A DNA stretch of 64,000 nt. It comes from an uncultured Acidobacteriota bacterium. GTDB lineage: Bacteria; Acidobacteriota; Vicinamibacteria; Fen-336. A program made the position numbers. Numbering within the stretch: the stretch's first letter is position 1; each line of letters begins with the position of its first letter. The stretch is taken from contig OY970399.1 of assembly GCA_963720545.1 (NCBI GenBank), positions 1,440,001 through 1,504,000 of the forward strand. The letters run 5' to 3'. This document shows positions 41,701 to 44,700 of this stretch, in pieces.

Positions 41701-44700
41701 TTCGGCTCGTACGTCGCGCAGGTCGCGGAAGTCTCCGTTGCGAACGGCAAGGTGTCGGTGCACCGCGTCGTCTGCGCCGTGGACTGCGGGCGTGTCATCC
41801 ATCCGGACGGCATCGCGCAGCAGGTGGAAAGCGCCATCGCGTACGGCCTTTCAGCCGCCCTCAAGAACGAGATCACGATCGCCGAGGGACGTGTGGTGCA
41901 GGGCAACTTCGGCGACTACAACCCGCTGCGCATCGACGAGATGCCGCACGTCGAGGTGCACCTCGTCGCCAGCGACGAAGTGCCGACCGGCATGGGCGAA
42001 CCCGGCCTGCCGCCGGTCGCCGCCGCCGTCGGCAACGCCGTCTATGCCCTCACCGGCAAGCGCGTCCGCAGGCTCCCGATCCGCCTCGACCAGACGTAAG
42101 AGAGATCCCTGGGTCGCGCGCAAGCGATGGGCGCCGTCGGGAAAACGAGCGCTAAACGGGCAGCTTGCGGGCGAAGCCCGGGAGCGGCAGGCTCGCGACG
42201 CGCGAAATCATCGCGTCGTCGGTGAGGTCGAGCTGCAGCGGCGTCACCGACACCAGGCCCTCGTCGTGCACGGCGTTGCAGTCGCTGCCGGGGATGTCCT
42301 CATGGCTGTAGTCGCTGCCGCCGATCCAGTAGTAGGCGCGGCCGCGCGGGTCCTTCTTCTCCACCACCTCGAGGCCGTACGTGTGCTTGCCAAGCCTGGT
42401 GACCGCATAGCCCTGGAGCGGTCCGGCGGGAATGTTCACGTTCAGCAGGAAGCGCGGCGGCAGCTGCGCCTCGAGCACCGCCGTCACCAGCGCACGCGCG
42501 AACCGCGCACCTTCTGCGAAGTCGAAGCTGCCGCGGGTGGCGAGGCTGAAGGCGACGGCGGGAATGCCGAGGATGCACGCTTCCATCGCCGCCGCGACCG
42601 TGCCGGAGTAGGTGACGTCGTCGGCGATGTTCGGGCCGTGGTTGATTCCCGACACCACGATCGCAGGGGGCTGCGCCTTCAGTATGTGGTTGACGCCGAC
42701 GTAGGCGCAGTCGGTTGGCGTGCCGTCCACTGCGTACCACTGCTTGCGGACCTCGCGAATGCGCAGCGGCCGGTGGATCGAGATCGCGTGCGACGTGGCG
42801 CTTTGCTCCGACTCCGGAGCCACCACCCAGACGTCGCCAAGGCCTTCCATGGCGCCGGCCAGCGCCAGAATCCCGGCCGACGAATGGCCGTCGTCGTTGG
42901 TGACGAGGATGGTGCGCACGCCGTTCATTCTAGGCGCTGCGCCTAGAATGGCGGCGGAGCGCGCCGCCACTTGAACCTGATCGTCCTGGCGATTCCGGTT
43001 TTCTTCCTGCTCATCGTCATCGAGTTCGCCGCCACCTGGCGCGCCGAGCGCCGCGCCTATCGGCTCGCCGACGCCGTCAACGACCTGTCGTGCGGCATCC
43101 TGCAGCAGCTCATCGAGCTGTTCCTGAAGACCCTGCTGTTCGGCGGCTACATCTACATCTACGAACGCTGGCGCGTCGCTTCGCTTTCGGCGTCGTCGGC
43201 GGTCGTGTGGGCCGCGTGCCTGGTGGGCGTCGACTTCCTCTACTACTGGTTTCACCGCACGAGCCACGAAGTCGGCGCGGTGTGGGCCACGCACGTGGTG
43301 CATCACCAGAGCGAAGACTTCAACCTGGCCGTGGCCTTGCGCCAGGGCGCTTTCCAGGGCGCCTTCTCGTGGGTGTTCTACCTGCCGCTGGCGCTTCTCG
43401 GCTTCCCGCCGCTCGTGTTCCTCACCGTGTCCTCGGTCAACACGCTCTACCAGTTCTGGATCCACACCGAGACGATCCGTTCGCTGGGCCCGCTCGAACG
43501 GGTCTTCAACACGCCCTCGCATCACCGGGTACACCACGGCCGCAACCCGGAATACATCGACCGCAACCACGCCGGCATGTTCATCGTCTGGGACCGGATG
43601 TTCGGCACCTTCGAGCCGGAGCGCGCGCCGGTCGTCTACGGCATCACGACACCGCTGCGCAGCTGGAATCCCTTGTGGGCGAACGCGCACTACTGGGTCG
43701 AGTTGTGCACTCTCGCGCGCCGCGCCACGACGCCTGGCGACAGGCTGCGCCTCTTCCTGAAGCCGCCCGGATGGCGGCCCGCGTCACTGGGCGGCCCGGT
43801 GGCGGCGCCGGCCGTGGACGCTGGAACCTACGAGAAATTCGATACCCACCTCGCCCGCCCGGCAGCCGCGTACGTGTTGCTGCAATTCCTGGTGCTGCTT
43901 GCCGCCAGCACGTGGGTGCTGTTCCGCCAGCAGGAACTCGGCGGCTTGCGGGTCGCCATGGCCGCTTCGTTCATCGGCTTGAGCCTGGTGGCGCTCGGCT
44001 TCGTCCTCGAAGGGCGCCGCCACGCGACCTCGATCGAGTGTGCGCGGCTTTTGGCGGGCGCGCTGCTCGTCTTGTGGTTCGTCCATTTCTTCCGATAAAA
44101 ATTGACGTGTACCTGGGCGCGCACTCGCAGTATGTTGAGGCATGCGCCGGTTCCAGAGTCTTTCGAGGAACGGCGGAGGAGACAGGCTGCGCCCCGGTCG
44201 GTTGTTCGCGATCGGCGCGGCGCTGGTGTTCGCCTCCTGCGTCGCACGCGAAGAGCGCGTGTCCGGTGCGCCAATTTCAGCAACGCCCGCGCCTCCGGCG
44301 GCAGCCGTTCCTGCGGCAACCCCGGCGCCCGCTCCTGCCGCGCCCGCACCAGCGCCCGATCCCGTGGCAACGCCCGGACCCGCGGCAGCCGCGACCGACG
44401 ACGCTGCGTTCGCCGCGAACATCCAGCCAATCCTGTTCCGCACCTGCGCGCCGTGCCACAAGCCGGGCGGCATCATGTACGAGCGCATGCCGTTCGACGA
44501 CCCGCGCGTCATCCGCGAACACCGCGCGGGCGTGCTGCGGCGGTTGAAGGGGCCCGATCACGACGCGGTCGCCGCGTGGCTCGGCGCCGGCCAGTGACGC
44601 GGTACCGCTAGGCCGAGCGCACCTCGAGCGACGAGCGGCGCGCGGCGGCGAAGCGGAAGAATGCCTCGAGCACGGGCCGGCCGTTGCCCGAATCGAGCAC

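What a model noticed while it worked through the whole genome (the two positions that open the first line are those of the whole stretch)
42971..44098. Animal-type alkylglycerol monooxygenase (AGMO) orthologue in a bacterium with a pterin supply
g01282 (375 aa) aligns over nearly its whole length with vertebrate alkylglycerol monooxygenase, the only enzyme known to cleave the 1-O-alkyl ether bond of glycerol ether lipids, and all its listed Swiss-Prot matches are animal AGMOs. Boldest reading: it is a working, tetrahydrobiopterin-dependent ether-lipid cleaving enzyme, used by an acidobacterium to remodel or eat glycerol ether lipids (which Acidobacteria themselves make). New would be AGMO activity and ether-lipid catabolism in bacteria, and a bacterial, more tractable source of an enzyme that has resisted purification from animals.
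Evidence so far: swissprot.tsv: 42.5% id over 360 aa to rat and mouse AGMO (E 3e-85), 40.6% to Xenopus; only-eukaryote best-hit list. Pfam FA_hydroxylase 80-213 (E 6e-30); relatives.tsv weak hit to the AGMO-specific C-terminal family AGMP_C PF24858, which is on record in 1 genome of the family, 2 of the class, 3 of 7450 Acidobacteriota and 87 of 189784 bacteria (floors; call 18). Histidine boxes HRTSH, HVVHH, HHRVHH are visible in the sequence. Pterin genes in the same genome: GTP cyclohydrolase I g02801 (62%), 6-pyruvoyl-tetrahydropterin synthase g02270, g02720, pterin-4a-carbinolamine dehydratase g02589, phenylalanine hydroxylase g02218 (45% to Pah) (gene lists, calls 14, 15). A TMEM86/YhhN lysoplasmalogen [...]
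(Added by a program. Inside this text positions count along the whole contig: contig position 1,440,001 is position 1 of the stretch shown here. "Call 12" and the like, gene names such as g00115 and contig names such as C1 are that model's own, and its searches are not shown. The text may have been shortened before it was handed on; [...] marks where a part breaks off. The agent that wrote the report below was given it as the finding of a first reader that could run no searches.)

Follow-up and report, generated by a model that had tools for sequence, protein, structure and literature searches.

The report
Bacterial AGMO-like ether-lipid oxygenase gene
This soil acidobacterium carries an intact membrane iron enzyme of the same family as the animal enzyme that cuts ether-linked fats; the family is common in bacteria, and its links to other ether-lipid genes suggest the same untested job.

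Summary
The ORF at 42971-44098 (+, 375 aa) is real. It has all nine AGMO histidines, the Glu next to His box 1 that sets pterin affinity in human AGMO, and a borderline AGMP_C tail. It is 46% identical over 232 aa to a bird AGMO record.

The "animal-type, sporadic, horizontally acquired" framing does not hold. Swiss-Prot shows only animals because it holds no bacterial members. Large databases hold 1915 clusters (50% identity) at E<=1e-30, and at least 597 bacterial species genomes carry a relative. In Vicinamibacteria the gene keeps its place among purine genes.

In 14 of 80 related loci the gene is fused to, or directly followed by, a YhhN lysoplasmalogenase gene. Other loci add glycerol kinase, aldehyde dehydrogenase, a lipid kinase and beta-oxidation genes. 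In the phylum sample, 20 of 34 genomes with the gene also have YhhN, against 43 of 367 without it.

Pterin dependence is plausible but unshown, and no pterin gene is ever adjacent. This locus has no lipid context of its own. The scan has already noted the AGMO-like/YhhN pair on three other genomes. Activity remains untested.

The parts
42971..44098 (+). AGMO-like membrane di-iron oxygenase gene (375 aa, TTG start)
   Evidence: AlphaFold model pLDDT 95.9, pTM 0.92
43208..43609 (+). FA_hydroxylase catalytic domain (aa 80-213). It holds His boxes H95/H99, H108/H111/H112, H185/H188/H189, the ninth His H165, and Q125, D197, N199, W207, D208
   Evidence: Pfam E 1.4e-29; residue positions; invariant columns in 41 relatives; direct alignment to bird and nematode AGMO records
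43265..43270 (+). H99-E100, the counterpart of human His136-Glu137. Glu137 sets tetrahydrobiopterin Km in human AGMO
   Evidence: The motif HEVGAVWATH fits 7 of 10 positions of the published animal consensus H-E-[ILV]-N-I-[FILM]-W-A-[AG]-H (PMC3304488, passages read)
43868..44053 (+). AGMP_C-like C-terminal region (aa 300-361), part of a three-helix membrane bundle (helices 296-318, 325-347, 352-374)
   Evidence: Pfam 27.8 bits against a 28.3 cut-off; helices in the model
42956..42959 (+). GGAG, likely ribosome-binding site 11 nt before the TTG start
   Evidence: read directly from the sequence
42927..42949 (.). Perfect 11-1-11 palindrome ATTCTAGGCGC-T-GCGCCTAGAAT. It fills most of the 42-bp gap between divergent surE and the AGMO-like gene and is a candidate operator or hairpin (inferred)
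   Evidence: 1 match; 0.01 expected by chance; unique in the 4.09-Mb genome

Best explanation
The gene encodes an inner-membrane di-iron monooxygenase of the alkylglycerol monooxygenase (AGMO) family.

Most likely mechanism (inferred):
1. It hydroxylates C1' of the 1-O-alkyl chain of alkylglycerols or lyso-alkyl glycerolipids.
2. The hemiacetal falls apart into a fatty aldehyde and glycerol (or a glycerol derivative).
3. These products feed aldehyde oxidation or reduction and glycerol catabolism.

In this genome the enzyme would work beside a separately encoded YhhN lysoplasmalogenase, which cuts vinyl ethers, and that gene's FAR-like reductase neighbour. Together they would turn over or scavenge ether lipids.

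The electron donor is probably a reduced pterin, recycled by the genome's PCD, but this is the weakest step (about 0.35-0.4 on its own).

Shown here: an intact gene, the catalytic residues, family membership, and genomic links between this family and ether-lipid, glycerol and aldehyde genes in other bacteria. Inferred: substrate, products, cofactor and physiological role.
For: Residues:
- All nine histidines essential in human AGMO are present, plus Q125, D197, N199, W207 and D208. Their equivalence was checked by direct alignment to bird and nematode AGMO records. Essentiality is from PMC3304488 and PMC7911779 (passages).
- E100 follows the second His, as Glu137 does in human AGMO. PMC3304488 states that no other animal fatty-acid-hydroxylase enzyme has an acidic residue there.
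- The genome's only other FA_hydroxylase paralogue has Gly at that position.

Fusions:
- 7 of 80 related loci encode AGMO-like::YhhN fusion proteins.
- All 120 of the 120 best database hits to the Acidovorax fusion carry both PF04116 and PF07947.
- Other fusions join the domain to alpha/beta-hydrolases or carboxylesterase (P0161, P0174, P0410).

Adjacency:
- 7 further loci, all Bacteroidota, have a separate YhhN gene directly downstream on the same strand.
- L016 reads lipase-like, AGMO-like, YhhN, aldehyde dehydrogenase.
- L047 reads GlpD, GlpK, AGMO-like, and L077 reads GlpK, AGMO-like. Both GlpK genes and the GlpD gene score above NCBIfam cut-offs.
- An acidobacterial genome (G282) has AGMO-like, YegS-type lipid kinase, TonB-dependent receptor and YhhN on one strand.

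Co-occurrence in the phylum sample of 401 genomes:
- 20 of 34 genomes with an AGMO-like match have YhhN, against 43 of 367 without.
- 5 of the 9 genomes with a full-length copy have YhhN.

Tree and own genome:
- YhhN-linked members lie on both sides of the deepest split. The query's nearest relatives outside the Acidobacteriota (apart from one unclassified MAG, L012) are the YhhN-adjacent Chryseobacterium/Pedobacter group.
- In the own genome, YhhN is directly followed by a NAD_binding_4 thioester-reductase-like gene.
- PAH and PCD are present.
- PCD is found in 33 of 34 AGMO-like-positive genomes against 260 of 367 others.
Against: - This locus has no lipid context. Its neighbours are purF, purL, a molybdopterin oxidoreductase, surE, purQ, purS, an MscS channel and purB.
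- No activity has been measured for any bacterial member as an ether-lipid enzyme. PMC13543475 (passages) states that AGMO is not known to be functional in bacteria.
- The only characterised bacterial relative, PRUB680, cyclises prodigiosin (PMC6667630 passages). Its place relative to this protein could not be tested.
- The residue matching essential human Tyr236 is His here, and in 112 of 120 near relatives.
- The Glu after the second His is not universal. It appears in 76 of 150 cluster representatives, with Arg in 43. Some YhhN-linked members have Q, V, G or R there.
- None of the 236 neighbouring ORFs scanned is a pterin gene.
- PCD is too common in the phylum (293 of 401) to discriminate.
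- 66 of the 80 related loci show no YhhN link, and 4 of the 9 full-length-bearing genomes in the phylum sample lack YhhN.
- The genomes compared are related, so the co-occurrence counts overstate independence.
- AGMP_C scores just below its Pfam cut-off.
- The soil RNA runs laid gave no usable cover of the gene.
Confidence: 0.55

Rival explanations
1. It is a di-iron C-H oxidase of the same family acting on a different alkyl substrate. Candidates are another membrane lipid (for example an ornithine-, sphingo- or hopanoid-type lipid) or a secondary metabolite, as PRUB680 does with prodigiosin. On this reading the resemblance to AGMO reflects shared chemistry, not a shared substrate.
For: - PRUB680 is an AGMO-like enzyme with a non-lipid-cleaving role (PMC6667630).
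- PMC13543475 reports that bacterial 'AGMO' annotations fall in two clades, the larger one holding PRUB680.
- NCBIfam's best hit is the ornithine lipid hydroxylase OlsE, though at 66 bits against a 475 cut-off.
- The local neighbours are purine genes.
- Tyr236 is replaced by His in this subclade.
- 66 of 80 related loci have no YhhN link.
Against: - The fusions and adjacencies to YhhN, GlpK/GlpD, aldehyde dehydrogenase and hydrolases point to glycerol ether lipids. They occur on both sides of the family tree, including the query's nearest relatives outside the Acidobacteriota.
- The OlsE score is far below its cut-off.
- PMC13543475 itself judged cycloprodigiosin synthesis unlikely for the AGMO/PRUB680-bearing MAGs.
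Confidence: 0.2
2. It is a 1'-desaturase rather than a hydroxylase. It would convert 1-O-alkyl into 1-O-alk-1'-enyl (vinyl ether) lipids, which YhhN then hydrolyses. The two enzymes would act in sequence, not in parallel.
For: - Fusions and operons usually join consecutive steps, and AGMO-like::YhhN fusions are abundant.
- Members of this enzyme superfamily catalyse both hydroxylations and desaturations (established knowledge, recalled).
- The YhhN family has proven lysoplasmalogenase members in Legionella and M. tuberculosis (PMC9471318, PMC9052158).
Against: - Every residue essential for hydroxylating AGMO is kept except Y236H.
- Many genomes carry the AGMO-like gene without YhhN: 14 of 34 in the phylum sample. 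A desaturase product would then have no outlet.
- The known plasmanyl desaturase (CarF/PEDS1) belongs to another family (PMC9131029).
Confidence: 0.1
3. It cleaves ether lipids but does not use a pterin. Electrons would come from another donor such as a ferredoxin, flavoprotein or quinol. The PAH/PCD genes would then be unrelated.
For: - None of 236 neighbouring ORFs, and none of the fusion partners seen, is a pterin gene.
- The Glu137 counterpart is replaced by Arg in 43 of 150 representatives.
- PCD is nearly ubiquitous in the phylum.
Against: - Glu is kept in the query, in 113 of 120 near relatives and in 120 of 120 YhhN fusions.
- 33 of 34 AGMO-like-bearing genomes have PCD.
- No alternative redox partner is fused or conserved nearby either.
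Confidence: 0.3

Closest known systems
Animal alkylglycerol monooxygenase (AGMO/TMEM195, EC 1.14.16.5)
   Same: - Eight-histidine motif plus the ninth His.
- Q, D, N, W and D essential residues.
- Glu beside His box 1.
- A C-terminal membrane domain (AGMP_C-like).
- 46% identity over 232 aa to a bird record and 38% over 272 aa to a nematode record.
   Different: - Shorter (375 aa; human numbering runs about 36-37 residues ahead).
- His in place of essential Tyr236.
- G, A and T at three positions of the animal H-E-x-N-I-x-W-A-[AG]-H consensus.
- AGMP_C scores just below the Pfam cut-off.
- Activity and cofactor are untested.
- Whether eukaryotic AGMOs are nested in the bacterial family or sister to it is unresolved.
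Bacterial AGMO-like::YhhN fusion proteins (Acidovorax, Delftia, Variovorax, Rhodoferax; NCBI name 'lysoplasmalogenase family protein')
   Same: The same AGMO-like domain (41-46% identity) with the HxxxHE motif.
   Different: The query lacks the fused YhhN domain. Its YhhN gene lies about 440 kb away. The fusions keep Tyr at the Y236 position (120 of 120).
PRUB680 of Pseudoalteromonas rubra (AGMO-like prodigiosin cyclase, de Rond et al. 2017)
   Same: A bacterial AGMO-like di-iron enzyme encoded away from any pathway cluster (PMC6667630 passages).
   Different: It acts on prodigiosin, not on a glycerol ether.
Scs7p sphingolipid alpha-hydroxylase (PDB 4ZR0), the nearest solved fold of the superfamily
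   Same: Membrane His-cluster hydroxylase superfamily.
   Different: Only a weak structural match: Foldseek E 4.3, TM 0.22/0.29 over 208 columns, rank 38. No PDB sequence match at E<=0.1.

Membership tests
Pfam FA_hydroxylase superfamily (PF04116) | Profile match above the curated cut-off, with HxxxH, HxxHH and HxxHH boxes | tested here: met
   103.6 bits against cut-off 31; boxes at 95-99, 108-112 and 185-189
AGMO (EC 1.14.16.5) | Nine essential histidines (human 132, 136, 145, 148, 149, 201, 221, 224, 225) | tested here: met
   H95, H99, H108, H111, H112, H165, H185, H188, H189. The nematode alignment covers all nine positions; the bird record is cut at its start and lacks the first two. Human positions are from PMC7911779.
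AGMO (EC 1.14.16.5) | Further essential residues Gln162, Asp233, Asn235, Tyr236, Trp243, Asp244 | tested here: inconclusive
   Q125, D197, N199, W207 and D208 are present. The Tyr236 position is His200. His is the rule in the query's subclade (112 of 120) and Tyr elsewhere. Whether His can replace Tyr is unknown.
AGMO (EC 1.14.16.5) | Acidic residue directly after the second His of box 1 (Glu137, tetrahydrobiopterin Km) | tested here: met
   E100. The own-genome paralogue has Gly there. Significance is from PMC3304488.
AGMO (EC 1.14.16.5) | AGMO-specific C-terminal domain (Pfam AGMP_C, PF24858) | tested here: inconclusive
   27.8 bits against cut-off 28.3 with PF24858.1; listed as PF24858.2 in the database's precomputed hits
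AGMO (EC 1.14.16.5) | Groups with animal AGMO rather than with other FA hydroxylases | tested here: met
   - 38-46% identity to animal records, as high as to distant bacterial members.
- Eukaryote rows join the family far from the paralogue outgroup.
- The Atlas lists an animal AGMO cluster at 0.91.
- Branching order is unresolved (AU p 0.77).
AGMO (EC 1.14.16.5) | Cleaves 1-O-alkyl ether of alkylglycerols / lyso-alkyl phospholipids | not testable with these tools
   Only indirect support from fusions and neighbours
AGMO (EC 1.14.16.5) | Requires tetrahydrobiopterin | not testable with these tools
   PAH and PCD are present; no pterin gene is adjacent in any locus
PRUB680-type prodigiosin cyclase | Close sequence relationship to PRUB680 and presence of a prodigiosin pathway | not tested
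   The PRUB680 sequence and the primary paper were not available. No pig genes were looked for.
Ornithine lipid hydroxylase OlsE (NCBIfam NF052566) | Score above the equivalog cut-off | tested here: not met
   66.2 bits against cut-off 475

The most novel reading that the evidence does not exclude
AGMO is at root a widespread bacterial enzyme family, and the animal enzyme is one offshoot of it. Together with YhhN it would form a two-enzyme bacterial module that cleaves alkyl and vinyl ether lipids. The module is sometimes fused, sometimes an operon, and sometimes dispersed as in this genome. It would give soil bacteria access to ether lipids as carbon or let them remodel their own. This acidobacterial copy would be an active, pterin-dependent di-iron enzyme: the first pterin-dependent lipid oxygenase in bacteria, and a tractable stand-in for the animal enzyme that has resisted purification.
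Probability: 0.3. Interest if true: 0.7.

Novelty: new member of a known kind. Interest (0 to 1): 0.5.

Why it matters

If the bacterial family does the same reaction, three things follow:
- Ether-lipid breakdown by bacteria would gain an enzyme.
- The turnover of ether-lipid biomarkers in soils would have a candidate agent.
- Biochemists would get bacterial, possibly more robust, proteins for structure and mechanism. The model here is very confident (pLDDT 95.9), while no similar solved structure exists.

This particular gene is an ordinary member of that family without informative neighbours. The fused or operonic forms in culturable Acidovorax, Delftia, Chryseobacterium or Pedobacter are better test objects.

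Tried and rejected
- **Local context.** The neighbours are purine-synthesis and housekeeping genes. The 169-aa ORF at 44102-44611 is an Arg-rich wrong-frame artefact.
- **Universal conserved neighbour.** None was found. The most recurrent neighbour clusters are shared only among 11 Pseudomonas loci or among the Burkholderiales loci.
- **Pterin neighbours.** None among 236 of 243 neighbouring ORFs scanned.
- **PCD co-occurrence.** Too common to discriminate.
- **Eukaryotes nested in bacteria.** A quick tree placed the eukaryote clade beside Myxococcota (SH-aLRT 84). The AU test did not reject eukaryotes plus outgroup on one side (p 0.77), and the constrained tree was even better by 22 log-likelihood units. 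The claim is dropped.
- **Structure searches.** Foldseek against the PDB gave nothing at E<=0.001. The wide VIA-align search matched only the C-terminal three-helix bundle to generic helical bundles. The PDB sequence search found only a chance hit, E 0.2.
- **Expression.** Two soil metatranscriptome runs hold 5% of the sampled words. The laid contigs touch the gene only with 32-35-nt pieces that run on unlike it, so this says nothing about transcription.
- **Rfam.** No match in 43900-44800.
- **Literature.** Searches found no paper that reports ether-lipid cleavage by a bacterial AGMO homologue or that describes the AGMO-like::YhhN fusion. The library lacks most subscription journals. De Rond 2017 and Watschinger 2010 are not held.
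- **Sequences not obtained.** Rodent, human and PRUB680 sequences could not be fetched.
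Full report
**1. Observation**

The ORF at 42971-44098 (+) is open for 375 codons from a TTG, and the opposite strand is not open. 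A GGAG lies 11 nt upstream. Relatives align from the first residue, so the start is sound.

- Pfam gives FA_hydroxylase over residues 80-213 (E 1.4e-29).
- AGMP_C covers residues 300-361 at 27.8 bits, a hair under its 28.3 cut-off.
- NCBIfam offers only OlsE, far below its cut-off.
- AlphaFold2 with 41 relatives gives a very confident all-helical membrane model (pLDDT 95.9, pTM 0.92).
- No comparable solved structure exists.

**2. Is it AGMO-like?**

Published mutagenesis of human AGMO names nine essential histidines and six more essential residues. It also names Glu137, next to His136, whose loss raises the Km for tetrahydrobiopterin 18-fold. No other animal enzyme of the superfamily has an acidic residue there (PMC3304488 and PMC7911779, passages read).

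The query has H95, H99, E100, H108, H111, H112, Q125, H165, H185, H188, H189, D197, N199, W207 and D208. The single exception is His200 where human has Tyr236.

The last protein search returned eukaryotic records, which allowed direct alignment:
- 46% identity over 232 aa to a bird record named alkylglycerol monooxygenase.
- 38% identity over 272 aa to a nematode record.

Both records are chimeric gene models, so only their AGMO parts count.

**3. Is it 'animal-type' and sporadic?**

No.
The best 120 hits are all at least 60% identical, and those with names are Vicinamibacteria or Acidobacteria.
- Among 1.84 billion cluster representatives, 1915 score E<=1e-30.
They come from Bacteroidota, Pseudomonas, Burkholderiales, Myxococcota, Gemmatimonadota and Leptospirales. 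Leptospira proteins also appear among the cluster representatives.
- The ESM Atlas puts bacterial 'sterol desaturase family' clusters first and the animal AGMO cluster at rank 24.

Within Acidobacteriota the family is patchy:
- 34 of 401 sampled genomes match at E<=1e-20.
- 9 of those match over at least 360 residues at 40% identity or more.
- Many others carry a shorter form without the C-terminal domain.

In a Vicinamibacteria relative (L004, 62% identity) the gene sits between purL and purQ-purS, as it does here. In L009 it is followed by purB. This points to vertical descent in this lineage rather than recent transfer.

**4. What does the family do?**

This locus is silent on that. Its neighbours are purF, purL, a molybdopterin oxidoreductase, surE, purQ, purS, an MscS channel and purB. 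I therefore compared 80 related loci.

No neighbour is universal. The recurring clusters reflect synteny among 11 Pseudomonas loci or among the Burkholderiales loci. One partner, however, recurs across phyla: YhhN (PF07947). This is the family of the mammalian TMEM86 lysoplasmalogenases and of the proven Legionella and M. tuberculosis enzymes (PMC9471318, PMC9052158).

| Link to YhhN | Loci | Taxa |
|---|---|---|
| One polypeptide (fusion) | 7 of 80 | Burkholderiales, one alphaproteobacterial MAG |
| YhhN is the next gene, same strand | 7 of 80 | Bacteroidota |

All 120 best database hits to the Acidovorax fusion carry both domains.

Further neighbours fit the products and substrates of AGMO:

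| Locus | Gene order |
|---|---|
| L016 | lipase-like, AGMO-like, YhhN, aldehyde dehydrogenase |
| L047 | glycerol-3-phosphate dehydrogenase, GlpK, AGMO-like |
| L077 | GlpK, AGMO-like |
| L072, L073, L076 | beta-oxidation genes nearby |
| G282 (Acidobacteriota) | AGMO-like, YegS-type lipid kinase, TonB-dependent receptor, YhhN, one strand |

Fusions to alpha/beta-hydrolases or carboxylesterase also occur.

Co-occurrence agrees. In the same 401 genomes, 20 of 34 with an AGMO-like match have YhhN, against 43 of 367 without. Of the 9 full-length carriers, 5 have it. These genomes are related, so the contrast is overstated, but it points the same way.

On a quick tree of 80 rows (one fragment dropped), all YhhN-adjacent members fall in the query's half and all fusions in the other half. 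The query's nearest relatives outside the Acidobacteriota, apart from one unclassified MAG (L012), are the YhhN-adjacent Chryseobacterium/Pedobacter group.

In the query's own genome YhhN lies about 440 kb away. It is directly followed by a NAD_binding_4 (thioester or acyl-CoA reductase-like) gene, a plausible fatty aldehyde/alcohol partner.

**5. Cofactor**

The genome has PAH, PCD, GTP cyclohydrolase I and two PTPS-family genes. The last two families ring in 11 and 10 of 14 control genomes, so they are housekeeping genes. PCD is in 293 of 401 genomes of the phylum sample: 33 of 34 AGMO-like carriers against 260 of 367 others.

The Glu137 counterpart varies across the family:

| Set | With Glu at this position |
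|---|---|
| Near relatives | 113 of 120 |
| YhhN fusions | 120 of 120 |
| Cluster representatives | 76 of 150 (Arg in 43) |

None of the 236 neighbours scanned, and none of the fusion partners seen, is a pterin gene. Pterin use is therefore plausible but the least secure step.

**6. Relation to eukaryotic AGMO**

The four eukaryote rows (two chytrid domains, one nematode, one bird) form one clade with SH-aLRT 99. In the quick tree that clade sat beside Myxococcota inside the bacterial family. The AU test did not reject placing eukaryotes with the outgroup (p 0.77), and the constrained tree scored better.

All that can be said is that the bacterial family and eukaryotic AGMO are each other's close kin. 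Who gave rise to whom is open.

**7. Known and new**

Bacterial AGMO-like enzymes are in print through PRUB680, a prodigiosin cyclase (PMC6667630; the primary paper is not held). A 2026 metagenome paper counts 239 MAGs with 'AGMO' genes and says AGMO is not known to function in bacteria (PMC13543475). My searches found no report of bacterial ether-lipid cleavage by this family, nor of the YhhN fusion, within a library that lacks most subscription journals.

This scan has itself noted the AGMO-like/YhhN pair on three other genomes. One of those reports was later marked as having partly failed. I reached the pairing from my own loci before reading those notes.

The passages read of PMC13159169 report alkyl ether lipids for acidobacterial subdivisions 1 and 4 only. 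That Vicinamibacteria are subdivision 6 is my recollection. It is therefore not shown that this organism makes its own substrate.

**8. Verdict**

This is a genuine, intact bacterial member of the AGMO family. It is ordinary within a large bacterial family and has no telling neighbours of its own. Its most likely function is oxidative cleavage of 1-O-alkyl glycerolipids, inferred by comparative genomics. Confidence is 0.55 for the function and lower for the pterin cofactor.

Noticed in passing
window 44142-44597 (+): A 151-aa ORF lies 44 nt after the AGMO-like stop. It has a lipoprotein-like signal (…LVFASC), a Pro/Ala-rich linker and a CAPCH haem-c motif. It has no Pfam hit. The Atlas places it nearest to acidobacterial hypothetical clusters (0.97), with cytochrome-c clusters at 0.90. 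Soil metatranscriptome contigs cover 44164-44355 at 90-96% identity. It is not found next to the gene in the 80 related loci.
   Followed up: partly
window 42927-42949: A perfect 11-1-11 palindrome overlaps the surE start codon (ATG at 42928, minus strand) and ends 22 nt before the AGMO-like TTG. It is unique in the 4.09-Mb genome. It could be an operator or hairpin for the divergent pair.
   Followed up: partly
G000:C1:1924854-1926500 (L086 6896-8526), outside the window: The genome's only YhhN gene is directly followed by a NAD_binding_4 'male sterility'/thioester-reductase-like gene. This is a possible fatty aldehyde or acyl reductase pair.
   Followed up: partly
L085 (G282:C56:66000-80000), 4810-10093, minus strand: An acidobacterial locus has AGMO-like, YegS-type lipid kinase, TonB-dependent receptor and YhhN in a row on one strand. 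It is a candidate uptake-and-cleavage locus for exogenous ether lipids.
   Followed up: partly
phylum sample, e.g. G160:C1:1992385-1993179, G370:C15:193727-194476: A short form (about 270-320 aa open frame) matches only residues 1-270 of the query at 42-47% identity and lacks the AGMP_C-like tail. It is common in two acidobacterial families (f40, f56).
   Followed up: no
P0409 (chytrid fungus record, 876 aa): It carries two tandem AGMO-like domains, at residues 88-451 and 602-848, 36% and 45% identical to the query.
   Followed up: no
P0012-P0078 class (about 480 aa); P0245 and L047 (about 770-820 aa); P0422: Other recurrent C-terminal fusions of the AGMO-like domain are BP74_N (PF23621), Beta-lactamase2 plus Golvesin_C, and beta-lactamase PF00144. 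Their meaning is unknown.
   Followed up: no
L039 (contig labelled Chitinophaga pinensis MAG): Its AGMO-like protein and its neighbours (His_Phos_1, alanine racemase-like, ABC genes) group with the Burkholderiales loci. This suggests a mis-binned contig.
   Followed up: no
window 39559-42099 (+): A molybdopterin-binding oxidoreductase (MoCoBD_1/2), together with surE, is inserted between purL and the AGMO-like gene, compared with the relative L004.
   Followed up: no
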